A stretch of DNA of 64,000 nt from a virus (taxonomy: Duplodnaviria > Caudoviricetes), in the IMG/VR virus record IMGVR_UViG_3300037400_002732, positions 32,001 to 96,000 of that record. One strand, 5' to 3'. The notes beneath the pieces were generated by a model that worked only from the letters and a program-made list of their open reading frames with translations, had not been told where the DNA came from and made no database searches. Of the stretch, positions 29,125 through 60,736 are shown one piece after another (the stretch's first letter is position 1; the number at the start of each line of letters is the position of its first letter). A program made the position numbers and the translations under genes.

Positions 29125-30417
29125 TTAATTCTCGTGATACGTACACTTACGGAGGAAGATGCCGTTACCGTACGTCATCATCGTACGTCCATTCGTGAAG
29201 TTGTGCTGGAGCAAGAGATCCGGACAACCAGAGTTACGGATCATCATCGTGAGCACGTCAAGCGGAATCTGGATTTCGAAGCCTTCCTTTTCGACGATGC
29301 AATCGCCCACGCTAAGGTTGACATGAATGCGTTCATCTTCAAGCCCTTCGATGCCAATCAGTCCTTGTTCGATAGCATATACGCGAACCTTGCCAGTGGG
29401 GTTGACATAATTCATATCGAAGTAAGTTCCGATAGCGGCAGCGACTGAATCAGCCGTAATCTTGAAGACACGTTCCATACCTTCGTTGTTATAGGTTTCG
29501 AGCTTGGAGTCGCCACAGTCGGCAACGAGTGTAGCAAACATGCCAGTGATGCGAATCTTCTTGAGCTTTGTACTGATGTCGATAACGACATTCAAAGACA
29601 AATCCATGTCAAGCGCATTCACGAGCGGAATCGCCTTGAAAGTGGTGGCTGGGACAGAAATGCTGAAGTCAGACTCGTTATCGAACTTCTTGCCGTTTTC
29701 GCTGTTGTCTGTAACCATGACGGTGTTCTGCATCGCCGTGGCGATAGTGCAGCTTTCATTACCAGTACGGTAAGACACGCGACCGTTCTTACGGTGAATT
29801 TCGACGGTGTCAAACTGGTAAATGCTGTCGATGATGGTGTTGAACGAGATCTGATCCATCGCAAGACGGATATTAAAGTCGTCGTCAGTCACCTTCGGAG
29901 TTTCAAACGGCTTCTGCGGTTCAAAACCGACTTCGAGTTCAAAGCCATTCATGTCTTCGTTGAAGAATCCGCCGAGATACAGCTTGCCTTCGCTGACCCA
30001 AAGGGCCGCACTGGTTTCACGAGTACTCATCAAGTGGCGAACGGCGTTGCAAAGGTCGTAAATGTTAATATACACGGTTTCCGGCAATTCCACGGAAAGC
30101 GGCAGAGCATCAATCTTTACACTAATGCCGCTTTCGGTTTCAATGTGAAGCCAAATCTTGTTGTCCTTCGGATCCACATCCGTATAGAGTCGGGCAACGG
30201 TGTTCTTGTCAAGCAGCGACTGTTCAATGAGGGACAGTCCTTGGCCGAAACGGCCTTGCAGCACAAACAGAGTAATCGGAAGGCTATCGTCGGCAGCAAT
30301 AGCTTCTTCGGTCTCCGGCGCATCTTCGCTCGGAGCCAGATTGTTGTAGTCGTTGAGCATTTCGTGCAATGAGTTGGCACGAATCTTCTGATCTTCGGTA
30401 AGTTGAATTTCAGCCAT
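29125..30417 (-). CDS. sliding-clamp-fold protein, DnaN (beta clamp)-like
   Basis: 430 aa, acidic, three repeats of a strand-helix signature (VYINIYDLCNAV, FSISVPATTFKAI, FEIQIPLDVLTMMI). Confidence 0.5.
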   Translation of the reverse strand: MAEIQLTEDQKIRANSLHEMLNDYNNLAPSEDAPETEEAIAADDSLPITLFVLQGRFGQGLSLIEQSLLDKNTVARLYTDVDPKDNKIWLHIETESGISVKIDALPLSVELPETVYINIYDLCNAVRHLMSTRETSAALWVSEGKLYLGGFFNEDMNGFELEVGFEPQKPFETPKVTDDDFNIRLAMDQISFNTIIDSIYQFDTVEIHRKNGRVSYRTGNESCTIATAMQNTVMVTDNSENGKKFDNESDFSISVPATTFKAIPLVNALDMDLSLNVVIDISTKLKKIRITGMFATLVADCGDSKLETYNNEGMERVFKITADSVAAAIGTYFDMNYVNPTGKVRVYAIEQGLIGIEGLEDERIHVNLSVGDCIVEKEGFEIQIPLDVLTMMIRNSGCPDLLLQHNFTNGRTMMTYGNGIFLRKCTYHEN

Positions 30418-30494: not shown

Positions 30495-32033
30495 CTAGAT
30501 ATTCGTCATCGCACCGATAACTTCATCTTGCTTGTCAACGGCTTGCTGGGAAGGGCCATTATCGGCACCGAACTCAGTTTCGACATCCATTGGTTCACTC
30601 GGCATCGACGTATCAATTCCTTGGGCTTGATCCATCATGTCAGCAAACGAACCATCGTTCATGAAGCTACTTCCGCTAGGTACGTTACCTTGAAGAACAT
30701 CCGGTGCAACCGATTCATCCGACAACGGCTGAGTAGCATCGCCGCCAGTGATCTTGCCTTCGCTCGGCAACTGGCTAAGGCTATCAGTACCAAGTTCAGG
30801 AGCCTTCGGCGTCTCTCCAGCAGTGAATACTTCTGGGAAGAGTTCTTCGAGCTTGTCGTTGAATTCAACTTGAGTAACATCTGCCGAACCAGTATTGTTA
30901 AGATATTCAATGAACTTTTGAACTTGTTCATCGGTCACTTCGGCATTTGCAAGAAGTGCATAGTCCTTAGACTTCAAGAATGCATTCACAATATCCAACG
31001 GCTTTTGTTCCTTGACGCCAGTAGTACCATTATATATTTCGCTACTACTCAATGAAATTCCAGAATTCTTCTTCGAAGCACTTTCTGCCATTTCATTGGA
31101 CGTCATCTTAGCAAGCAAATCAATGGCGGATCCATTCTCGTCATTATTAGTCAACTCAGTCAAAGAGTCACGCAGCTTGTCACCAAAATTACCCGGCACA
31201 TCGCCATCGTTTGAGGCATCCGTACCGTTCACATCACCACCGTTCATGCCAGGGACATTCGTCGGAGGCGGAAGGTCTTCTTGACCAGGCTCCATAGCAA
31301 ATGCGTCAGCACCCGGTGCTTGCTCGCCATCTTCAAGAAGATTAACTGCGTTGCAAAGGTTAAGCAGCTGGCCGAGTTCACTGCCGACAGATTCGTGATA
31401 AATCGAGCTGTCTGTAGCTTGCCAAGAATTGCTTAAATCTTCGGTGCCGTTGCCAAGACCATTGACATATTGCATAGTGTCCAAGTCATTGCCGACATTG
31501 TACTTGTTATTGGATGCAATAAGGTCATCGCAAGTCTTCAAGATAGTGTAGCCGAAGTTCTTGGTGAACTGGGGACTGGTGAGAGCAACCTCGTAGATGT
31601 TGGATAAGCCAGTATCAGCCGTAAGCTTAACCGTGATATTCTCATTTTCGTTCGGATAATACAGTTCGACGAGCATGTCATGGTTACGGCGATTGATAAC
31701 AAACTTACAATGAGTTTCCTTCATATCGATACTGGCAAGATTCATACGCATGCCACGATATGCCGTATTGGTTACCGCCTCGGTAAAGACCTTCTTATAA
31801 AGGTCGCGAGTCGTAATCAAGTTCTTCCCATACGTCAGCGGCTTGTTCATATCGTATTCACGATGATCCCAGTTTTCGCCATCTTGAGGCTTGCTTACTG
31901 GCTTGGGAGTCTGCTTGGTAAGCATCTTGATAACTTTTGTCTTGGAAGGGACAACTGGGCCACTTTCCGTCGAAACATAGACCAATTCCTTCATGGTCTG
32001 TAAAAGCTTGTTCTTATCGATCTGGTTACTCAT
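30495..32033 (-). CDS. acidic late protein, possible prohead core/internal protein
   Basis: ATAAACT 27 nt upstream; several xE-S/A motifs (STES, FTEA, YHES). Confidence 0.75.
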   Translation of the reverse strand: MSNQIDKNKLLQTMKELVYVSTESGPVVPSKTKVIKMLTKQTPKPVSKPQDGENWDHREYDMNKPLTYGKNLITTRDLYKKVFTEAVTNTAYRGMRMNLASIDMKETHCKFVINRRNHDMLVELYYPNENENITVKLTADTGLSNIYEVALTSPQFTKNFGYTILKTCDDLIASNNKYNVGNDLDTMQYVNGLGNGTEDLSNSWQATDSSIYHESVGSELGQLLNLCNAVNLLEDGEQAPGADAFAMEPGQEDLPPPTNVPGMNGGDVNGTDASNDGDVPGNFGDKLRDSLTELTNNDENGSAIDLLAKMTSNEMAESASKKNSGISLSSSEIYNGTTGVKEQKPLDIVNAFLKSKDYALLANAEVTDEQVQKFIEYLNNTGSADVTQVEFNDKLEELFPEVFTAGETPKAPELGTDSLSQLPSEGKITGGDATQPLSDESVAPDVLQGNVPSGSSFMNDGSFADMMDQAQGIDTSMPSEPMDVETEFGADNGPSQQAVDKQDEVIGAMTNI

Positions 32034-32123: not shown

Positions 32124-33044
32124 TTACTGAACAAGGTCGAACTGGGAGTAAGCACCAGCCGAGCATTCGGACGCGCCCAGCCAAAGAGTCATCGGCTTGT
32201 CTGGATTGACACCAGGAATAAGCGATGTAGCCTTGAGCGACATCTGTTCGACGCCCTTAAACACAGCGTAAGTGATATTGATATCGTACTCGCCGCCGAT
32301 TCCTTTCATATAGTTGAATAACTGAACCGGAAACACTGTCACGGATCCAGGTCTGAAAATCTTGTGAATCATCGGCATGTCCAAGCCACGAGTGCAAGTG
32401 GCTGGTACGCAGAACGTAATCTGCTGGGACATCTTGCCCTTGATGTAAAGCTTGATGCCGCCGTCGTCGATACGAAGAGTAACAAATTCACACGTCGGAA
32501 CTGCACGGAGCTTGGTAGCGAAGTCCTTAACCATTTCTTCCGAGAAGTGCATTTCGCCGATCTTCGTCATCGGATCGTGTTCGGTGTCATACGGCGTATG
32601 CGAATGCTGTTCCTTGAAGCAGCTAGGGTCTGCAGTAGGCGTACGGCAAGTGATGCCGCCACCAGCAAACTTGATATACTCGTACTTGCGTCCAGTAATC
32701 GACGTATCTATAGCCAGCTCAGCCGTACCGCGCTTAGGGAAATTGGCCAGTTCAGCGTACTTGACAAACTCGTTTAGCGAGAAAATATTGATGCGCTTTG
32801 CGTCGAAGTCCAAATCGTCGTCCGATGCTGCCAAATGGGTCATCATAGAAATATCTGGGATATTGATATGATTACCCGGAATGCGGTTAGGGCTGGAATC
32901 CTTGTACATGATTACACAGCCAGCTTTAGTGATTGAGCTGACACCCTTCAACAACTTGAAGAAGGGTTCGCTAAAACGGATACCTACTGACTGCTTTTCG
33001 TTTTCTTCTGCCATATAATAACCTCGAACTAAAATATAGCTCAA
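32124..33044 (-). CDS. gp45: sliding clamp (gp45-like)
   Basis: IRFSEPFFKLLKGVSSI, DFDAKRINIFSLNEFV and TADPS match the T4 gp45 N-domain; start may be MAEE at 33014. Confidence 0.75.
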   Translation of the reverse strand: MSYILVRGYYMAEENEKQSVGIRFSEPFFKLLKGVSSITKAGCVIMYKDSSPNRIPGNHINIPDISMMTHLAASDDDLDFDAKRINIFSLNEFVKYAELANFPKRGTAELAIDTSITGRKYEYIKFAGGGITCRTPTADPSCFKEQHSHTPYDTEHDPMTKIGEMHFSEEMVKDFATKLRAVPTCEFVTLRIDDGGIKLYIKGKMSQQITFCVPATCTRGLDMPMIHKIFRPGSVTVFPVQLFNYMKGIGGEYDINITYAVFKGVEQMSLKATSLIPGVNPDKPMTLWLGASECSAGAYSQFDLVQ

Positions 33045-35236
33045 ATCAATTTTGGATTCAAATCGGACTTAGTTATCACTTTTTTGCCGATTTCGACGAA
33101 TTTCGGCTCCAGCTGGTTCCATTCGAGGGCGGTAAACGGTCTGTTAATGTCCACACACCAGCTAGAATCGACTTCGATCTGCATCATCTTGACTTCCATG
33201 CGGTGCATCATCATCGAGACGACGTAAGGAACACAGCCTCGTCCGTCGCCAAAGCGATACAGCTTATGCCAGTTCCTCAAGATGGGAAGGTAGCCGCCAC
33301 GGATAGCTACAAACGGCCCATCAAGCATAGCCACCTCATGTGAACCAGTGACCGAAACGGTTCCGGCCACACGGCGATTGAACATTCCGTCAGTAAGTGA
33401 ATATTCGCTATACATGCCGTATGTATTCGGGCATCGCATCCACGTTCCATCCGGCAAGAAGTATTCATAGCCGAACGGAGCAACCGCACCAACGTCACCA
33501 GGAACTTGTTCAAGCTTCTGGATAAAGGACGGATCGTATATGATTGATGACGAATGGGCCAAAACAATCCAAGACGGCGGTACTTTCGGATTCAACTTTG
33601 TAAGCTTTTGTGCAACACGAGAAATGTTAATAAAAATTGACATTTGAGGGTTGTTGCACTTTCGCATCTTGACTACCTTGTCGCCAGCCAAGTAAATCAA
33701 TTCGTTTCGAGTCAGCGCATACTTCTTGTACGGCACCTTCGTACCCACGCCAGCATTGCGATAGTACAGAATTGTAATGACGCTCGGATCCTTGCTGTGC
33801 TTGAGAACGGTTTCCTTGTCAATATGGATGTTGTCCTTTTCGCGAATACCCAACGCCTTGCGAATCTGGTTGCGCTCGGCCTCTTCCTTGTACTTTTCCA
33901 TATAGACTTCATGTCGGCGTTCTTCGGCTCGAAATTCGTTTTCGTACAAGGCAGCCTTCAACGCGACTTCCACGTCATCCATTTCCGGAATTTCAATAGC
34001 GAGACAGCGTTCCTTACGAGCCCTTGTCTTGGCAGCAGCCTTAGACGCCCTAAGACGCTTGTAGTATTCTTCACGTTTGTTCGTCTTGTTCAGCTTGTCC
34101 AAATGCTTCTTACGGAATTCCGAAAGTTCCATCTTTGGATCAACATTGACACCGGACGCGACAACGGCATCGACATCTTCGCGAACCCATCCCCACATCG
34201 GATATGCAAAACGGCCAGCCTTGCGAGCTTCTTCGCAAGCGGCCATATACTCTTCCGCTGTCATAACGCAGTATTCGCGTTTCTTATGTATGTTCATCAT
34301 TCGCGGCGGAGCAACTACTCGGCACTTTCCGTTAATCAATTCATTGATCCAGAAATTGCTCTTACCGAATTTCAGACGAATGTTGAAACGGTTGTAGTAT
34401 GACTTACCTTCGCCATAAAAGAAGCGTTCGGCGATACGGTCGTACAGCGCATCCAGTTCCTTCTTATCGAACAAATTACGATAACGAGACCCAACCTTGG
34501 TGTATTCTGGATGAAGCTGTTTCGTATAAATGAACTTGGTAATGGTACGGCGAGAACACCTCATGTAGACACACGCCATGCCAGTAGTCAATTTGTCCGG
34601 AAGAGGCTTATCAGTAATAAGCTTTGTCGCACGTCGTTCGGCCTTATTGATCGTATTGGTAACAAACTGTATTATGCTGTCGCGAGTCATCCATTTGTAA
34701 CGCTTGCGGCCAGTAACGGTATGCACCCAAAACGCGATGTTGGCATTACCCATTCGTGCTTGGGCCCTAAGCTTGCCTGGAGTAGTTCCCATGAACGTAG
34801 CGGAATCCTTGACATTCATTGTCTTGGGCAAGAACTTGAAATTACTTGACGGCACGTAATTCTTGAGGAAGTATTCATAGTCATGGAACGTGACGTACTT
34901 GCCGAATTCATCGGCTGGCTGCTCGATGATAATTCCTTTCTTCACGAGCCTAAGATACGTCGTCTGGTGAATATCCAGATCGGCAATTATTTCAGCCGGA
35001 CGAAGCTTCGCTCTAGGATGAGTGCTGCAAGGCGGCTTCAATCCATAGGCGGACAATTTTTTAAGACAAGCGTCATAACGGTATTTCTTTTGTCCAAGAT
35101 AATTAACCTTGTACGGAATACCTTCAAAAAAGCCCATACGCTTAAGCTCGGACGACGGCCTATCAATAATCTGAGCAATACGGTTCGGTTGAACAAAGTC
35201 GTCGAGGCCCTTAGTTTTTAAAGACGCCATCGCCAT
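33041..35236 (-). CDS. multi-HTH DNA-binding protein fused to a GT-A glycosyltransferase-like domain
   Basis: Basic N-terminal region with excisionase/MerR-like HTH repeats; coiled coil; C-terminal WIVLAHSS.IIYD...VGAVAPFG...EVAMLDGPFVAIR. Confidence 0.55.
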   Translation of the reverse strand: MAMASLKTKGLDDFVQPNRIAQIIDRPSSELKRMGFFEGIPYKVNYLGQKKYRYDACLKKLSAYGLKPPCSTHPRAKLRPAEIIADLDIHQTTYLRLVKKGIIIEQPADEFGKYVTFHDYEYFLKNYVPSSNFKFLPKTMNVKDSATFMGTTPGKLRAQARMGNANIAFWVHTVTGRKRYKWMTRDSIIQFVTNTINKAERRATKLITDKPLPDKLTTGMACVYMRCSRRTITKFIYTKQLHPEYTKVGSRYRNLFDKKELDALYDRIAERFFYGEGKSYYNRFNIRLKFGKSNFWINELINGKCRVVAPPRMMNIHKKREYCVMTAEEYMAACEEARKAGRFAYPMWGWVREDVDAVVASGVNVDPKMELSEFRKKHLDKLNKTNKREEYYKRLRASKAAAKTRARKERCLAIEIPEMDDVEVALKAALYENEFRAEERRHEVYMEKYKEEAERNQIRKALGIREKDNIHIDKETVLKHSKDPSVITILYYRNAGVGTKVPYKKYALTRNELIYLAGDKVVKMRKCNNPQMSIFINISRVAQKLTKLNPKVPPSWIVLAHSSSIIYDPSFIQKLEQVPGDVGAVAPFGYEYFLPDGTWMRCPNTYGMYSEYSLTDGMFNRRVAGTVSVTGSHEVAMLDGPFVAIRGGYLPILRNWHKLYRFGDGRGCVPYVVSMMMHRMEVKMMQIEVDSSWCVDINRPFTALEWNQLEPKFVEIGKKVITKSDLNPKLI

Positions 35237-36432
35237 TAGAAGTAAACCTCCAGCTTTTTCTTGGCAGCCATTTTTTCAGCAAGCTGCAATCTGTTTTCGC
35301 GGCGGGCACGTTTTTCCCTTTCAGCCAAGTCGCCGCTAGACAAAGCGAATAGAATAGAAGCTCCGCCCGGAGCAGAGCAACGGTCAGCAATGAACTGGTC
35401 ATTGACATAGCCATCCGCGTCAACAGGGAATTCACCATCAAGAACTGCGGCGTTAACGTCCTTGGCCTTTATTCCTCGCCAAGAAAACCAGTTGTAACCT
35501 TTCTTAACAGATTCTATACGAGCAAGCTCACCAGCCTTGTCGTTATCCCATAACACGGTACAATTTTCCTTATGCTCGGCAATCTGTGGATTATCTGCGA
35601 TCATTTCATCAAAGTGAGATACGCCACCAATAGCGATGGAATTACGGATAAATGTCGAGTCGATAGTTCCTTCAAGGATATAGAACGGCTTGTTCACATC
35701 CAGAAAGTCAATATTGTACGCTTGTCGCTTAACGCCTTCGAAATTACGGTAACGCGGTTCGGTCTTCGGATCCAAAGCTCGCGCATCAAATTGATTCCAT
35801 GCGCCACCATATTTATAGAACGGAATGACCAGACGGTTACGGAATTCATTTCCAATAGGCTTCCCCTTTTCATTTAGGACAAGCGCACCGAATTCATCCC
35901 TCTTTAGGAACTGATCGCCTTCTTGACAGACGAACCACAAGTCATACACGTCCTTGCGGATTTTTCTGCTCTCGCAGAAAGCAACCGCTTGTTCGGCAAG
36001 CGGATGATGGTCGAGCAACGAGACAAGTTCATCGTCGGCAAACGGAAGCTCGGCCTTTTTCTTACGTTGGCGTTCTTCGAATTCACGATTACGGGCCCTG
36101 CGGTCACTATCCTCATCCTTGCCAAGAAGAAGAATTCGGCTATATGCAGCAAAGTCAGTATCCTTCAAATAGGTCATGAAATGTTCACTTGTACCACACT
36201 TGTAACAACGGAATAGCCACTTGTCTCGATAGATATAAGCCTTCTTCTTGTTCGGTCGGCTCAAATCACCGCAGAACGGACAAACAAAGTTATACTCATT
36301 GGCCTTGGTGTGGGTAAGGTGATAGTCACCCAAATGGGAGACGACCTCTGAATCAAGAACTGCATCTGGAATATTATCGTACGCGAACGCCATAAAAACC
36401 TCAAACAATGAACGGTGCTCAATGTTAATCAA
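35236..36432 (-). CDS. gp61: DNA primase (gp61/DnaG-like)
   Basis: CPFCGD..CYKC zinc ribbon, RLVIPF, EGTIDS, WDND, KDVN. Confidence 0.93.
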   Translation of the reverse strand: MINIEHRSLFEVFMAFAYDNIPDAVLDSEVVSHLGDYHLTHTKANEYNFVCPFCGDLSRPNKKKAYIYRDKWLFRCYKCGTSEHFMTYLKDTDFAAYSRILLLGKDEDSDRRARNREFEERQRKKKAELPFADDELVSLLDHHPLAEQAVAFCESRKIRKDVYDLWFVCQEGDQFLKRDEFGALVLNEKGKPIGNEFRNRLVIPFYKYGGAWNQFDARALDPKTEPRYRNFEGVKRQAYNIDFLDVNKPFYILEGTIDSTFIRNSIAIGGVSHFDEMIADNPQIAEHKENCTVLWDNDKAGELARIESVKKGYNWFSWRGIKAKDVNAAVLDGEFPVDADGYVNDQFIADRCSAPGGASILFALSSGDLAEREKRARRENRLQLAEKMAAKKKLEVYF

Positions 36433-37773: not shown

Positions 37774-38430
37774 CTAAGTAGGCGTTTTTGGCGATTCTTT
37801 TTGGTGGGTCAACAGCTGGATAGCTTCTTGACGCTTCAATGCGGCATCGACTTGTTCTTCCAAGTTTTCCGGAAGCTCGAAATCGAGATCATCGATGTGT
37901 ACCTTTTCAAGCTCGTCAGTGACTTCCTTCATGAGAGAATCAAAGTCCCAGCCAATCTGTCTTGAAATGACGTTATTGATAACGCACAAGTCGGAGAACT
38001 TGGCGGCATCGCCAACCAGCTTTTCATTTTCAACCGCTTCCACGTTGTTCGGGTCGAAATCGTCTGAAATATGGAGAGAACCATCCTCGTCGATTTCAAG
38101 CGCACTTGCTGCGGTTTCATCAGACATCGCAGTAGCCTTCTGCACGTCTTCATCATCGCGAGCATATTCGTCAGCAAGCTGCATGTAGCTCTTTCCGATG
38201 AACGGATTGCGCTTCTGCTGTTCGACAAGCCACTTGTTGTAGTATTCGGTCTTGACGAGAACGCCAGTACCGGCACCACCATATTTCTTGTCGTCCTTAG
38301 AACCAATATTGACGATTGCATTGGTAAGCTCTTCACGTTTTTCGAGAGCCGCTTCTTCAGCAATAGCCGAGTCCTTCTCGTGCTGCTTAACAATACTCTT
38401 GTACTTTGCACCAAACTTGAAATTAGCCAT
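37774..38430 (-). CDS. hypothetical acidic protein
   Basis: 218-aa ORF in the helicase operon. Confidence 0.75.
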   Translation of the reverse strand: MANFKFGAKYKSIVKQHEKDSAIAEEAALEKREELTNAIVNIGSKDDKKYGGAGTGVLVKTEYYNKWLVEQQKRNPFIGKSYMQLADEYARDDEDVQKATAMSDETAASALEIDEDGSLHISDDFDPNNVEAVENEKLVGDAAKFSDLCVINNVISRQIGWDFDSLMKEVTDELEKVHIDDLDFELPENLEEQVDAALKRQEAIQLLTHQKESPKTPT

Positions 38431-58502: not shown

Positions 58503-58527
58503 AGGCATAAACACTATTGGATTGATT

Positions 58528-60675
58528 ATGGCCCAGCACAATTTCAGTGAATTATTCGACGAATACCTTGATGACAAGGCATCCGATAAGCTAAGAAACC
58601 GATTGGCATCCGCCCAAGCCGATCTCGCTAAGTCACCAGTCGCCGACGAAATTCAAGCCAGTCTTGACGGCGGAGACATCGACCAAATTAAAGATTTGTT
58701 TACAATGCTAACACGAAGCAGTAAATCGACTGCTCCAGAAATTTGGAATGCACTGAAGCAAGACCGCAAGAACCTACTTGACGCAGCGGCCAACAAAAAA
58801 GTTAAGTCCAGTTCAATCGATTCGGCAATCAAGAAACTTAATCCCAAGCCGCAAAACGATACAGAAGCAAAGAAAGACAAACAGTTTGATGTAAATCTTC
58901 CCAATTTCTCACTAGAAAACGACAACATCTTTGGCGAGATGGGCGACGTATCGCTTGATGATCTGGCCAACGTCACCGACGACACTAAATCCGTTCCAGC
59001 TACAGCGTCAACGCAAGCTCAAGCTCAAGATCAAGCTCAAGCTCAAGCTCAAGATCAAGATCAAGCCCAAGCTCAAGATCAAGCTCAAGCTCAAGATCAA
59101 GATCAAGATCAAGATCAAGCAACAACCGAAGAAAACGACGCTGAAGCGGCGGCAACCGAGTTCGCAAACGAAGAAGAAATTCTGGACAATGATCCATTCC
59201 ATATCACTACAATAGACGATGAGGAAAAATCAGAAGAGGAAGAAAAAACAGTCGATCAAGCGCAAAGTGAGCAAGCACAAAGTGAACAAGCACAAAGTGA
59301 ACAAGCGCAAGGTGATAACAGCACAGCAGCAACAAACTCAGTCGATATTAATCCGGAAGAAGTAGAAGCAGAAGAAGCACGACGTCTGCGTGAAGCAGCA
59401 GAAGCCGCAAGACAGCAACGCGATGCAGAAGCCGCCGCTGCGGCACAACGCCAGCGCGATGCAGAAGCCGCCGCTGCGGCACAACGCCAGCGCGATGCAG
59501 AAGCCGCCGCTGCAGCACAACGCCAGCGCGATGCAGAAGCCGCCGCTGCAGCACAACACCAGCGCGATGCAGAAGCCGCGTCAGCTAGCCAAGAAGGCAA
59601 TGCAGATACTATCGATCTTCCCAATGACAGTGCGGATAATGTAAACTTCCGTGAACAATATTCAGATGTGTATGCCGAAATCGACGAAAAGGCCATTACA
59701 TCAGAACAAGCGGAGGAAGCCAAACGATATGCTGACCAAGTATTCGCTACTCCGGATGTTGAGCCGAGAGCGTATCATGCATTGACTGGAGGCCCCAGTG
59801 CGATTCGCACCAGGTGCATCGCTGGATTGCTGTCTACGGCAAATTCCAGACTAGGTTACAGATCTGACGGCGACCCAAGCACATCAAACCGCATCAACTT
59901 CAATGGCGGTGTCTCGTCCCAGGGTCACGTCGCTCCACACGTTCGCAGATCGTTTGTTATTCCCAATGGATTCGGCATGAAGCGCAATGCGTCCATCTGG
60001 AATACACCGATAATTACAGACTTCGGATTCCCATTCCTCAACTTCAGCTCTGAAGCCTTTCTCAACGTAATCAAGTCGGACGAAGATGATAAGGTTAAAA
60101 ACAGTAATCTGAAAGAAATGTTTAAGAATGCCAGCAAAACCCTCGGTGGTGTATGGAAGGCTATTCACGCAGCACCGCTTGAGTTGATTCGCCAAATCGC
60201 TCATGAGATTGGAACCAAATGTACGCCCAACTATCTCAGAGTTGATGGTAACGACTTGCTGACTGCAGAACCGGGTGAACGAGTAAGCGTCACGCCAATC
60301 AACTACTACAGCGTCAATCCGTCTTACTTGGGTGTCACGATGGTTCCATACGAATTCTTGACTAACTTCTACGATGTAATCGACTACAGCAGCACATCCC
60401 AGAACGTCTATTTGAAGTACTCTGATGGGTTGACTGCAGATGAATTCGCCGAAGAAATCAACGAGAACGATGGCATTCCTCCATTCTACATCCTCGTACC
60501 GAAGAACGCAAAATTTAGCAAGTGCCCCATCAAGTCCGGTAGCTTATTCGGTTCACTCATGAACGTCATCCTCGGTCGTCAGAAGTACATGATGGTCAAG
60601 ACAGTCTTCCAAGGCAAGCGTGGATGTATCGCAATGGACGAGCAAACCGCAGACAAGCTGTATTCCAACCTATAG
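58528..60675 (+). CDS. repeat-containing late protein, paralog of 62105..63631
   Basis: ATG at 58528; QA/QD, QAQSE and QRDAEAAAAAQR repeats; C-terminal GIPPFYILVP. Confidence 0.85.
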   Translation: MAQHNFSELFDEYLDDKASDKLRNRLASAQADLAKSPVADEIQASLDGGDIDQIKDLFTMLTRSSKSTAPEIWNALKQDRKNLLDAAANKKVKSSSIDSAIKKLNPKPQNDTEAKKDKQFDVNLPNFSLENDNIFGEMGDVSLDDLANVTDDTKSVPATASTQAQAQDQAQAQAQDQDQAQAQDQAQAQDQDQDQDQATTEENDAEAAATEFANEEEILDNDPFHITTIDDEEKSEEEEKTVDQAQSEQAQSEQAQSEQAQGDNSTAATNSVDINPEEVEAEEARRLREAAEAARQQRDAEAAAAAQRQRDAEAAAAAQRQRDAEAAAAAQRQRDAEAAAAAQHQRDAEAASASQEGNADTIDLPNDSADNVNFREQYSDVYAEIDEKAITSEQAEEAKRYADQVFATPDVEPRAYHALTGGPSAIRTRCIAGLLSTANSRLGYRSDGDPSTSNRINFNGGVSSQGHVAPHVRRSFVIPNGFGMKRNASIWNTPIITDFGFPFLNFSSEAFLNVIKSDEDDKVKNSNLKEMFKNASKTLGGVWKAIHAAPLELIRQIAHEIGTKCTPNYLRVDGNDLLTAEPGERVSVTPINYYSVNPSYLGVTMVPYEFLTNFYDVIDYSSTSQNVYLKYSDGLTADEFAEEINENDGIPPFYILVPKNAKFSKCPIKSGSLFGSLMNVILGRQKYMMVKTVFQGKRGCIAMDEQTADKLYSNL
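59014..59120 (+). repeat. coding hexamer microsatellite (CAAGCT/CAAGAT)n
   Basis: Encodes a QAQAQD run. Confidence 0.9.
59416..59580 (+). repeat. 36-bp coding tandem repeat, about 4.5 copies
   Basis: CAGCGCGATGCAGAAGCCGCCGCTGCRGCACAACGC encoding QRDAEAAAAAQR. Confidence 0.9.
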
Positions 60676-60678
60676 CAT

Positions 60679-60733
60679 TGTTTCATGTGAAACATTTTAT
60701 TGTTTCACGTGAAACATTGTTTCACATGAAACA
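60679..60733. promoter_or_regulatory. parS: array of three parS-type palindromes
   Basis: TGTTTCATGTGAAACA (60679-60694), TGTTTCACGTGAAACA (60701-60716), TGTTTCACATGAAACA (60718-60733). Confidence 0.85.
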
Positions 60734-60736
60734 TTG

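What the first reader, a model, noticed from the sequence alone, without database searches (positions are those of the whole stretch)
33041..35236. Tandem-HTH plus glycosyltransferase-like fusion between primase and sliding clamp
Seen: a 731-aa basic protein overlapping both primase and gp45 genes. It has several excisionase/MerR-like HTH units (LRPAEIIADLDIHQTTYLRLVKKG, MNVKDSATFMGTTPGKLRAQARMG, LTTGMACVYMRCSRRTITKFIYTKQL), then a coiled coil, then a GT-A-like domain. In that domain the usual HQD/DxD position reads HSS. Inference: either a replisome-coupled DNA glycosylation writer/reader, or a nucleotide-sugar-sensing regulator built from a dead transferase. I do not recognise this architecture from T4-like phages.
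Basis: inference. Interest (0 to 1): 0.78.

Follow-up and report, generated by a model that had tools for sequence, protein, structure and literature searches.

The report
Five-HTH DNA binder with eroded glycosyltransferase core
An uncultured group of giant T4-related phages keeps, inside its DNA-replication gene cluster, a protein that chains five DNA-gripping units to a sugar-transferase fold lacking the usual catalytic motif; it most likely holds or organises DNA at the replication machinery and does not add sugars.

Summary
The 731-aa ORF (33041-35236, minus strand) is real, basic and conserved. It starts on the primase stop codon (TAATG).

**N-terminal half.** The model shows five tandem Xis/BldC/MerR-type winged-HTH units, not three, plus a half unit.

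**C-terminal domain.** It has a clear GT-A fold (Z 14.9 to majastridin, Z about 11 to many GT2 enzymes). Its nearest relatives are phage PF13712-like proteins. In all 34 diverse homologs the DxD position carries no acidic residue.

**New here:**
- The C-terminal half is predicted to homodimerise (ipSAE 0.67, best control 0.00).
- A sister clade carries only the helix plus GT-A-like core, without HTHs, at the same place after the primase.
- A third clade keeps the long form next to the o512 gene, about 40 kb from the primase.
- Near-complete relatives encode no hydroxymethylase or Tet/JBP, so DNA glycosylation through hydroxymethyl bases is unlikely.

**Not confirmed.** The "gp45" identity of the downstream gene, the overlap with it, and the coiled coil.

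**Best reading (0.5).** A dimeric DNA-binding or tethering factor of the replisome cluster, built on a non-catalytic GT-A core.

The scan found this family before on other DNA (e1-5619077 and others); my results agree and add to them. No homolog was found in GenBank phage records, and four literature searches turned up no description of this architecture.

The parts
33041..35236 (-). Whole gene, 731 aa plus stop
   Evidence: ORF list and translation; full-length homologs down to 19-27% identity
35039..35203 (-). Winged-HTH unit 1 (residues 12-66)
   Evidence: AF2 model gives strand-helix-helix-strand-strand-helix, pLDDT about 83-89. Assigned by topology only.
34829..35014 (-). Winged-HTH unit 2 (residues 75-136)
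   Evidence: AF2 topology. The equivalent unit of homolog P0049 hits Pfam HTH_17 at E 1.7e-5. Weak VIA matches to winged-helix regulators over 70-120.
34640..34828 (-). Winged-HTH unit 3 (residues 137-199), the most basic unit (+9) and the least conserved
   Evidence: VIA Z 6.8-7.3 to MerR-family N-terminal domains (5xql, 6xl5, 3hh0, 3d6y) and Z 6.5 to 7lxs; charge; conservation
34409..34600 (-). Winged-HTH unit 4 (residues 213-276)
   Evidence: Pfam HTH_17 at 216-264, E 1.3e-3, below cut-off. Pukovnik Xis rmsd 1.6 over 54/54, Z 6.6; also GIsul2 Xis, BldC, RacA, SoxR.
34214..34405 (-). Winged-HTH unit 5 (residues 278-341), the best conserved unit, with an insert in the wing
   Evidence: AF2 topology; nearly invariant Y281, I286, K289, W296
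34145..34204 (-). Half unit (residues 345-364): one strand plus one helix, with invariant G349
   Evidence: AF2 model E349-351, H352-361; conservation
33992..34144 (-). Basic, poorly conserved linker (residues 365-415); shortened in distant homologs
   Evidence: Alignment gaps and 19% mean pairwise identity. Not folded on its own.
33827..33991 (-). Conserved helix B region (residues 416-470) with E423, R459, L462; part of the core shared with the short forms
   Evidence: Conservation. Residues 411-433 contact the partner's GT-A domain in the dimer model. Aligned in the HTH-less short forms.
33044..33811 (-). GT-A fold domain (residues 476-731), the most conserved part of the protein
   Evidence: AF2 pLDDT 87; Foldseek PDB, BFVD and Atlas; VIA Z 14.9 and about 11; 38% mean pairwise identity against 20-36% for the HTH units
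33545..33556 (-). DxD-equivalent position, H-S-S-S (residues 561-564). Across the family it reads [H/P/S/A][G/A/S/T][T/S]S.
   Evidence: Column counts; strand 556-561 in the model; hhalign onto D-A-D of a true GT2 family, E 0.12-0.13
35234..35251 (-). Translational-coupling junction: GGAGG (35247-35251), primase TAA (35236-35238) sharing one base with the ATG (35234-35236)
   Evidence: Sequence read. The same shared-coordinate junction is seen in most related loci.
35236..36393 (-). Upstream gene: DnaG/gp61-type primase
   Evidence: phrog_47 E 2.7e-37; 26-28% identity to gp61 of T4-like phages
32124..33014 (-).
   Evidence: No Pfam, PHROG, tblastn or PDB profile hit; language-model lead to a cluster with PCNA_N in 22% of members; syntenic in all loci of clade A

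Best explanation
The gene encodes a homodimeric DNA-binding protein of the replication gene cluster of an uncultured clade of very distant T4 relatives with genomes of about 350-420 kb.

Shown or predicted by tools:
- Five tandem Xis/BldC/MerR-type winged-HTH units.
- A GT-A fold C-terminal domain with no acidic DxD.
- A predicted two-fold dimer formed by the GT-A domains, with helix 411-433 of each chain packing on the other chain.
- Translational coupling to the primase.
- Conserved linkage to the o296 and o512 genes.
- A sister clade that has only the helix plus GT-A-like core.

Inferred:
- The five units act as a covalently linked version of the head-to-tail filaments that free Xis, BldC and RdfS proteins form on DNA. 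One chain would grip and distort roughly 50 bp, and the dimer would hold two such segments or about 100 bp.
- The GT-A-like core no longer transfers sugars. It serves as the dimerisation hub and as a binding surface for a partner or a small ligand, tying DNA to the primase/o296/o512 machinery.
- In the sister clade an acidic F-F-E-G-D-G N-terminus replaces the DNA-binding array on the same core.
For: Real and conserved:
- Full-length homologs in 30 clusters at 90% identity and 29 representatives at 50% identity.
- The order DnaB-o172-o218-gp32-primase-TARGET-o296-o512-o430 is kept in 29 of 29 loci, down to 26% identity.
- The start codon overlaps the primase stop.

HTH array:
- AF2 model with pLDDT 87 shows five repeats of the HTH_17 topology.
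- Foldseek probability 0.97-1.0 for RacA, BldC, Pukovnik Xis and RdfS.
- VIA Z 6-7.3 for MerR N-domains and excisionases.
- HTH_17 hits in 12 of 26 homologs, best E 1.6e-6.
- Net charge +32 over residues 1-345.
- Filament and indirect-readout behaviour of free relatives: BldC (PMC5859096) and RdfS (PMC11963761), from their abstracts.

GT-A fold:
-.

Loss of the catalytic motif:
- No acidic residue at 561-564 in 34 homologs.
- hhalign places these residues on the D-A-D of a true GT2 family.
- No GT Pfam hit for P0001 even at E<=1.
- The motif looks graded across clades: D-S-S-T in clade C, N-D-T-S in the short forms, and none in clade A.

No acceptor pathway:
- No PF00303 and no Tet_JBP in this record or in relatives that are 91-93% complete.

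Dimer:
- ipSAE 0.67 against a best control of 0.00. The mark was reached by 20 of 30 proteins solved as pairs and by 1 of 23 solved as single chains.
- The three runs agree in at least 90% of contacts, and partner pLDDT is at least 79.
- The interface includes 411-433, 563-574, 608-631 and 688-700.

Conserved core:
- Short forms of 324-397 aa match only profile positions about 386-685 and sit directly after the primase.
- In clade C the long form lies directly upstream of o512.
Against: - The GT-A domain is the most conserved part of the protein. It keeps invariant or near-invariant polar residues (D568, R646, H633, S674, Q686), most of them outside the predicted interface. That pattern would also fit an enzyme or a ligand pocket.
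- Metal-independent GT-A transferases without DxD exist (own knowledge, for example GT14 C2GnT-L).
- The DxD mapping rests on non-significant hhalign scores plus predicted secondary structure. I could not inspect model coordinates.
- No repeated DNA motif that could serve as a binding site was found near the gene or in the 175-kb record.
- DNA binding, dimerisation and any contact with the primase, o296 or o512 are untested. Neighbouring genes alone are weak evidence for binding.
- The recognition helices vary a lot between homologs, so some units may bind protein and not DNA.
Confidence: 0.5

Rival explanations
1. It is an active, DxD-independent glycosyltransferase (or another NDP-dependent transferase) that the HTH array delivers to DNA. 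It would modify DNA bases or replisome proteins as they emerge from the fork.
For: - Clear GT-A fold, nearest to phage PF13712-type glycosyltransferase-like proteins.
- A clade C homolog gives a weak direct PF13712 hit, E 0.01.
- The GT-A domain is the best conserved region, with conserved polar residues.
- D664 in a G-D-G-R loop is acidic in 29 of 34 homologs, and clade C has G-D-D-H there.
- Own knowledge: T4 alpha-glucosyltransferase has been reported to contact gp45, so replisome-coupled DNA glycosylation has a precedent.
Against: - No acidic DxD in any homolog.
- H633 and D639 are not kept in the short forms.
- No hydroxymethylase or Tet/JBP to make a hydroxyl acceptor on DNA in near-complete relatives.
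- The DxD-equivalent loop lies in the predicted dimer interface.
- No Pfam GT family is reached by P0001 itself.
Confidence: 0.18
2. It is a MerR-style transcription regulator. HTH units bind promoter DNA, a dimerising helical region follows, and the pseudo-glycosyltransferase senses a nucleotide or nucleotide-sugar to time middle or late gene expression with replication.
For: - The domain order (MerR-type wHTH, then helix, then a C-terminal globular domain of a ligand-binding fold) parallels classical MerR proteins such as BmrR, which appear among the structural hits.
- Predicted dimer.
- The top structural match, majastridin, was solved as a UDP complex (entry titles).
Against: - Five HTH units instead of one.
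- The dimer is predicted through the GT-A domains and not through a MerR-type antiparallel coiled coil.
- The short forms lack any HTH yet keep the same genomic place, which is hard to square with a core role as a transcription factor.
- No palindromic or repeated operator was found nearby.
Confidence: 0.15
3. It is the replication initiator of these phages. The multi-wHTH array would recognise an origin and recruit the co-translated primase and the helicase, as multi-winged-helix initiators such as RctB or plasmid Rep proteins do.
For: - Position in the replication operon, coupled to the primase.
- Multi-wHTH DNA-binding array and predicted dimer.
- Own knowledge: initiators often combine several winged helices and dimerise.
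Against: - No iteron-like arrays in the window, around the gene or in the 175-kb record.
- The wHTH type is Xis/MerR, not Rep-type.
- The sister clade keeps the core without any HTH.
- In clade C the gene is about 40 kb from the primase.
Confidence: 0.08

Closest known systems
Xis/BldC/RdfS/RacA small winged-HTH proteins (Pfam HTH_17, PF12728; PDB 4j2n, 6ama/6amk, 8dgl, 5i44)
   Same: Each of the five units has the same strand-helix-turn-helix-hairpin-helix topology. Units 3 and 4 superpose on whole Xis, BldC and MerR N-domains. The free proteins line up head to tail on DNA and distort it (PMC5859096, PMC11963761).
   Different: Here five divergent units are fused in one chain, so no oligomerisation is needed, and they are joined to a large C-terminal domain. 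The Pfam score of this protein is below the family cut-off (19.4 against 27 bits). DNA binding is untested.
Phage 'Glycosyltransferase like family' proteins (Pfam PF13712 Glyco_tranf_2_5) and GT2-type GT-A enzymes (SpsA 1qg8, ppGalNAc-T2, heparosan synthase, TarP)
   Same: Same GT-A fold across about 170-205 residues: Z 10.8-12.5, Atlas TM 0.63-0.65, BFVD E 7e-10.
   Different: No DxD. No sequence-level match for this protein; a clade C relative reaches only E 0.01 and 16 bits. It is fused to a DNA-binding array and sits in a replication operon, not a polysaccharide cluster.
Majastridin (2qgi/2nxv), the GT-A-like sixth gene product of the Rhodobacter blasticus F1-ATPase operon
   Same: Best solved structural match: Z 14.9, rmsd 3.9, 203 residues aligned of the 248-residue chain. 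Like the phage protein, it is a stand-alone-size GT-A-like module encoded among genes of an unrelated machine.
   Different: 10% identity, no HTH array, and solved with UDP bound (entry title). Whether the phage domain binds a nucleotide is unknown.
Classical MerR regulators (BmrR, SoxR, CueR, EcmrR)
   Same: MerR-type wHTH, then a helical region, then a C-terminal globular domain, acting as a dimer.
   Different: Five wHTH units instead of one. The predicted dimer goes through the GT-A domains and helix 411-433, not an antiparallel coiled coil. No known effector.
T4 alpha- and beta-glucosyltransferases (DNA hmC glucosylation)
   Same: Phage-encoded, T4-type replication context, and sugar-transferase ancestry.
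   Different: The T4 enzymes are GT-B fold (own knowledge) and need the gp42 hydroxymethylase pathway. Here the fold is GT-A and no PF00303 gene is present in near-complete relatives.

Membership tests
GT-A glycosyltransferases (GT2-like, PF13712/PF00535) | Rossmann-like GT-A fold | tested here: met
   Foldseek PDB E 4.5e-6 and 74 hits at E<=1e-3; VIA Z 14.9 and about 11; Atlas TM 0.63-0.75; BFVD E 7e-10
GT-A glycosyltransferases (GT2-like, PF13712/PF00535) | Match to a family HMM above its gathering score | tested here: not met
   No GT family for P0001 at E<=1, and none among the 26 homologs at E<=0.1. A clade C homolog reaches PF13712 at 16 bits against a cut-off of 27.
GT-A glycosyltransferases (GT2-like, PF13712/PF00535) | Acidic DxD (or DxH/NDD) motif after strand beta-4 that binds the metal and NDP | tested here: not met
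   Residues 561-564 read [H/P/S/A][G/A/S/T][T/S]S in 34 homologs. They map onto D-A-D of a true GT2 family by hhalign, E 0.12-0.13, and by the predicted strand. The mapping is not statistically strong.
GT-A glycosyltransferases (GT2-like, PF13712/PF00535) | Catalytic base (Asp/Glu) on the acceptor side | tested here: inconclusive
   D664 is acidic in 29 of 34 long forms and clade C has G-D-D-H there. The loop is missing from the short forms in the alignment, and I could not inspect coordinates.
GT-A glycosyltransferases (GT2-like, PF13712/PF00535) | NDP-sugar binding and transfer activity | not testable with these tools
   Needs biochemistry
HTH_17 / excisionase-MerR winged HTH (PF12728) | Strand-helix-turn-helix-beta hairpin-helix topology | tested here: met
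   Five consecutive units in the AF2 model
HTH_17 / excisionase-MerR winged HTH (PF12728) | Structural superposition on solved members | tested here: met
   Units 3 and 4: Pukovnik Xis rmsd 1.6 over 54/54, MerR N-domains Z 6.5-7.3, BldC, RacA, GIsul2 Xis. Units 1, 2 and 5 are supported by topology only, because one or two domains fill the hit lists.
HTH_17 / excisionase-MerR winged HTH (PF12728) | HMM score above the gathering cut-off | tested here: not met
   P0001 scores 19.4 bits against 27. However, 12 of 26 homologs hit at E<=0.1, best 1.6e-6, and PF12728 is precomputed on P0030 and P0033.
HTH_17 / excisionase-MerR winged HTH (PF12728) | DNA binding | not testable with these tools
   Only inferred from fold and charge (+32)
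Classical MerR regulators | One wHTH followed by an antiparallel coiled-coil dimerisation helix and an effector domain | tested here: not met
   Five wHTH units. The predicted dimer interface is GT-A to GT-A plus helix 411-433.
T4-type DNA glucosyltransferase system | GT-B fold enzyme plus a hydroxymethylase (PF00303) that makes the acceptor base | tested here: not met
   GT-A fold. No PF00303 in G000, G001 (91% complete) or G002 (93% complete); only a distant relative has a thymidylate-synthase-family gene (E 1e-126). No Tet_JBP either, although the controls for that family did not ring, so the test is weaker.
gp45/PCNA sliding clamp (claim about the downstream gene o296) | Sequence or profile match to clamp families | tested here: inconclusive
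   No Pfam hit in 10 diverse homologs; no PHROG or tblastn hit; no PDB profile hit; language-model lead to a PCNA_N-bearing cluster.

The most novel reading that the evidence does not exclude
A glycosyltransferase fold has been recruited as a permanent, non-catalytic (or non-canonically catalytic) core component of a viral replisome gene set. It is dimeric, always linked to the primase, o296 and o512 genes, and carries interchangeable N-terminal heads: a five-unit covalent 'Xis filament' that grips DNA in two clades, and an acidic F-F-E-G-D-G peptide in a third. If true, this would be a previously unknown class of replisome accessory factor in giant T4-related phages, and a natural example of a single-chain wHTH filament.
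Probability: 0.4. Interest if true: 0.72.

Novelty: new variant of a known kind. Interest (0 to 1): 0.6.

Why it matters
Both folds are familiar. The combination, and its fixed place in a replication operon, are not. Four literature searches found no paper describing it, and GenBank phage records hold no homolog.

If the reading holds, three things follow:
- A core replication accessory protein of a whole clade of 350-420 kb phages is built on a pseudo-glycosyltransferase.
- Nature has made a covalent five-unit version of the Xis/BldC DNA-distorting filament, which would be a useful model for indirect-readout DNA recognition.
- The long and short forms give a ready-made natural experiment for separating the function of the core from that of the DNA-binding head.

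If the domain is instead active, it would point to an unknown DNA or protein modification made at the fork without the hydroxymethyl-pyrimidine pathway.

Tried and rejected
- **GenBank phages.** tblastn of the protein found no match.
- **PDB sequence profiles.** The full-length and C-domain profiles gave no hit even at E 10.
- **Stand-alone relatives of the C-domain.** A near-length search (130-557 aa) with the C-domain profile returned only fragments on short contigs.
- **PF13712 members for a residue-level alignment.** None found in the phage's own record, in five relatives, or in three cyanophage genomes.
- **hhalign of the C-domain against the phage's own GT2 genes and their family.** Not significant (E 0.12-0.29). 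I used it only for the local DxD register.
- **Possible binding sites.** Tandem repeats in the window and in the whole record, and direct and inverted repeats around the replication cluster, gave only coding repeats and chance pairs.
- **P0058 and P0059.** They looked like stand-alone N-terminal proteins but are fragments of full-length homologs: they align from residue 1 at 60% identity.
- **HTH-array profile on the short-form loci.** No hit even at E 10, so this is not a simple split gene.
- **Primase tree to order gain and loss of the HTH array.** Clades B and C are each one group, but the branching among A, B and C is unresolved and the outgroup branch is very long. No direction is claimed.
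- **o296 and o512 family profiles against PDB and Pfam.** Nothing usable.
- **Majastridin literature.** Nothing informative in the held library.
- **Model coordinates.** They are not exposed, so conserved residues could not be mapped onto the UDP site of 2qgi.


Full report
**1. The observation**

The window holds one long ORF at 33041-35236 on the minus strand, 731 aa.
- It is basic: K+R 126 against D+E 81, and the first 345 residues carry net +32.
- The upstream gene is a DnaG/gp61-type primase (phrog_47 E 2.7e-37; 26-28% identity to gp61 of T4-like phages).
- The primase TAA and the target ATG share one base (TAATG), and a GGAGG lies 10 nt upstream. This is a classical translational-coupling junction.
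- The downstream ORF overlaps only if its TTG at 33044 is used. An ATG at 33014 preceded by GAGG is the likely start, leaving a 26-nt gap. The Atlas record of that protein starts there too.
- Strong terminator-like hairpins on this strand come only after o512 (30475-30451) and after o430 (29104-29071). Several weaker hairpin matches fall inside the coding sequences, including two inside the primase gene.

**2. Context**

The window is part of a 174,807-bp IMG/VR virus record that CheckV rates 46% complete.
- Neighbours are UvsX, a DnaB-type helicase, gp32, the primase and a family-B polymerase.
- The polymerase is only about 26% identical to T4-like polymerases. The phage is therefore a very distant T4 relative, probably a jumbo phage.
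- Related contigs reach 348-438 kb, and two 420-kb relatives are complete with terminal repeats.

**3. Distribution of the family**

- There are 30 clusters at 90% identity and 29 representatives at 50% identity among 1.84 billion proteins.
- Nearly all are full length (660-776 aa); the rest are fragments on short contigs.
- None comes with a name, and GenBank phage records give no hit.

**4. N-terminal half**

An AlphaFold2 model of residues 1-372, built from 34 homologs (pLDDT 87), shows five consecutive strand-helix-turn-helix-hairpin-helix units at 12-66, 75-136, 137-199, 213-276 and 278-341, plus a strand-helix half unit at 345-364.
- Foldseek gives probability 0.97-1.0 for RacA, BldC, Pukovnik Xis and RdfS, each covering one unit.
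- VIA-align gives Z 6.5-7.3 for MerR-family N-domains on unit 3.
- On unit 4 it gives Pukovnik Xis (rmsd 1.6 over 54 of 54 residues, Z 6.6), GIsul2 Xis, SoxR and BldC.
- These Z values are modest, as expected for 55-residue modules. The hit lists are nevertheless homogeneous and cover whole targets.
- By sequence, Pfam HTH_17 is reached below cut-off in this protein (E 1.3e-3) and in 12 of 26 homologs (best 1.6e-6). In P0049 the hit falls on unit 2.
Units 1 and 5 are additional.
- The units are too divergent from one another to align by sequence.

**5. C-terminal domain**

A model of residues 476-731, built from 36 sequences (pLDDT 87, pTM 0.87), is a GT-A fold.
- Foldseek on the PDB gives majastridin 2qgi (E 4.5e-6), vaccinia H3, ColGalT1, mimivirus R699, ppGalNAc-Ts, SpsA and STIV A197.
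- VIA-align gives Z 14.9 for majastridin (203 residues aligned) and Z about 11-12.5 for many GT2-type enzymes.
- BFVD gives a phage 'Glycosyltransferase like family' protein at E 7e-10.
- The ESM Atlas gives TM 0.63-0.65 to viral PF13712 clusters. The language-model search agrees.
- A clade C homolog gives a weak direct PF13712 hit (E 0.01).

Strand 556-561 (W-I-V-L-A-H) is followed by S-S-S where GT-A enzymes have DxD.
- Across 34 homologs these positions read [H/P/S/A][G/A/S/T][T/S]S, with no acidic residue.
- Two hhalign runs against the phage's own GT2 gene and its family place H561-S-S563 on the invariant D-A-D. The scores are not significant (E 0.13 and 0.12).

The domain is nevertheless the most conserved part of the protein: 38% mean pairwise identity against 20-36% for the HTH units. 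W556, D568, G589, G607, G625, V635, G640, P641 and R646 are invariant, and H633, S674 and Q686 nearly so.

**6. Dimer**

Two copies of residues 345-731, supplied with an alignment, gave ipSAE 0.67 in three runs against 0.00 for the best of three controls.
- The mark was reached by 20 of 30 proteins solved as pairs and by 1 of 23 solved as single chains.
- The runs agree in at least 90% of contacts, and pLDDT is about 80.
- In protein numbering the interface is 411-433, 492-532, 563-574, 608-631 and 688-700.
- The GT-A domains therefore meet around a two-fold axis near residues 608 and 629. Helix 411-433 of each chain lies on the other chain.
- The DxD-equivalent loop, with the invariant D568, is inside the interface.
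- This is model confidence, not a measurement. No long coiled coil is predicted.

**7. Synteny and forms**

*Clade A.* In 29 loci fetched through the protein itself, the order DnaB-o172-o218-gp32-primase-TARGET-o296-o512-o430 is kept down to 26% identity. In most loci the primase stop touches the target start.

A second scan anchored on the primase showed two further arrangements.

*Clade B.* Six distinct loci, primase 36-40% identical.
- The gene after the primase encodes only 324-397 aa, matching profile positions about 386-685. That is helix B plus the GT-A-like domain.
- It is preceded by an acidic N-terminus with a conserved F-F-E-G-D-G motif.
- The HTH-array profile finds nothing in these loci even at E 10.

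*Clade C.* This clade includes two complete 420-kb genomes.
- o296 sits directly upstream of the primase.
- A 779-aa long form lies about 40 kb away, directly upstream of the o512 homolog.

The helix plus GT-A-like core is thus the constant element. Its linkage to the primase, o296 and o512 genes is the constant context, and the HTH array is a head present in clades A and C.

The DxD-equivalent reads D-S-S-T in clade C, N-D-T-S in five of six short forms, and has no acid in clade A. This looks like graded erosion.

A primase tree does not resolve the order of the clades, so gain versus loss of the array is left open.

**8. Is there anything to glycosylate?**

- The thymidylate-synthase/hydroxymethylase family (PF00303) is absent from this record and from relatives that are 91% and 93% complete. 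One distant relative has a thymidylate-synthase-family gene (E 1e-126).
- Tet/JBP is not found either, though the controls for that family did not ring, so this test is weaker.
- The record has two ordinary GT2 genes elsewhere, both with intact sequence-level GT2 matches. The phage can therefore keep canonical glycosyltransferases when it needs them.

**9. Interpretation**

The evidence fits a dimeric DNA-binding protein whose C-terminal pseudo-glycosyltransferase core dimerises and probably binds a partner or ligand.
- Its five wHTH units would form a covalent analogue of the head-to-tail DNA-distorting filaments of BldC (PMC5859096) and RdfS (PMC11963761).
- What it does for replication is inferred, not shown. 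The candidates are tethering, DNA organisation, initiation and regulation.
- I put 0.5 on the non-catalytic DNA-binding/tethering reading.
- I put 0.18 on an active DxD-independent transferase.
- I put 0.15 on a MerR-style ligand-sensing regulator.
- I put 0.08 on an origin-binding initiator.
- The strong conservation of polar residues outside the predicted interface is the main reason to keep a ligand or catalytic role open.

**10. Comparison and novelty**

- The unit folds are members of known kinds (HTH_17-type wHTH and GT-A), but both fail the Pfam cut-offs.
- The DxD feature of GT-A enzymes was tested and not met, so I do not file the protein as a glycosyltransferase.
- The literature searches found no description of this architecture.
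- The scan had already met this family on other DNA (e1-5619077 with a follow-up, e1-5619093, e1-5674456, e1-5674464). Those notes reach the same 'five HTH plus dead GT' reading.
- New here are the predicted dimer, the HTH-less short forms, the third gene arrangement, the graded motif loss, and the absence of a hydroxymethylase in near-complete relatives.

Noticed in passing
window 60677-60736: Tandem Repeats Finder picks up closely spaced copies of a palindrome, TGTTTCACGTGAAACA and a one-mismatch variant. By my own knowledge this matches the bacterial chromosomal parS consensus. I did not look for a ParB.
   Followed up: partly
window 32124-33014, 30495-32033, 29125-30417 (all minus strand): o296, o512 and o430 are conserved with the replication cluster in all three clades. 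None has a Pfam, PHROG or tblastn match, and the o296 and o512 profiles give no PDB sequence match. They are unidentified replisome-cluster proteins. The clamp or clamp-loader idea remains a guess.
   Followed up: partly
window 37774-38430 (minus strand): A 218-aa gene directly upstream of gp32 has the position and size of the T4 gp59 helicase loader (own knowledge: 217 aa, adjacent to gene 32). It has no Pfam or PHROG hit.
   Followed up: no
L065:6244-7329, L077:6213-7304, L086:6842-7816, L087:6235-7275, L092:6214-7296, L083:6160-7353: The short (HTH-less) homologs share an acidic N-terminal motif, F-F-E-G-D-G-x-I, followed by a very basic helix. The motif looks like a short linear partner-binding peptide.
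   Followed up: partly
L086:7905-9155: An IS605 OrfB/TnpB-type gene (OrfB_IS605 E 2.9e-27, Cas12f1-like TNB domain) is inserted between the short-form gene and o296 in one relative, that is, inside the replication cluster.
   Followed up: no
G000:C1:151077-152207 (L005:1480-2610) and G000:C1:15008-16066 (L006:832-1890), outside the window: The same phage record carries two canonical GT2 genes. One is fused to TPR repeats. The other has a Glyco_transf_7C region and an invariant D-A-D, and is conserved on other large contigs.
   Followed up: partly
window 59419-59579 and 59014-59120: There are in-frame coding repeats: a 36-nt unit in 4.5 copies at 98% identity, and a 6-nt unit in about 18 copies. 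Both lie inside the 717-aa plus-strand ORF at 58522-60675.
   Followed up: no
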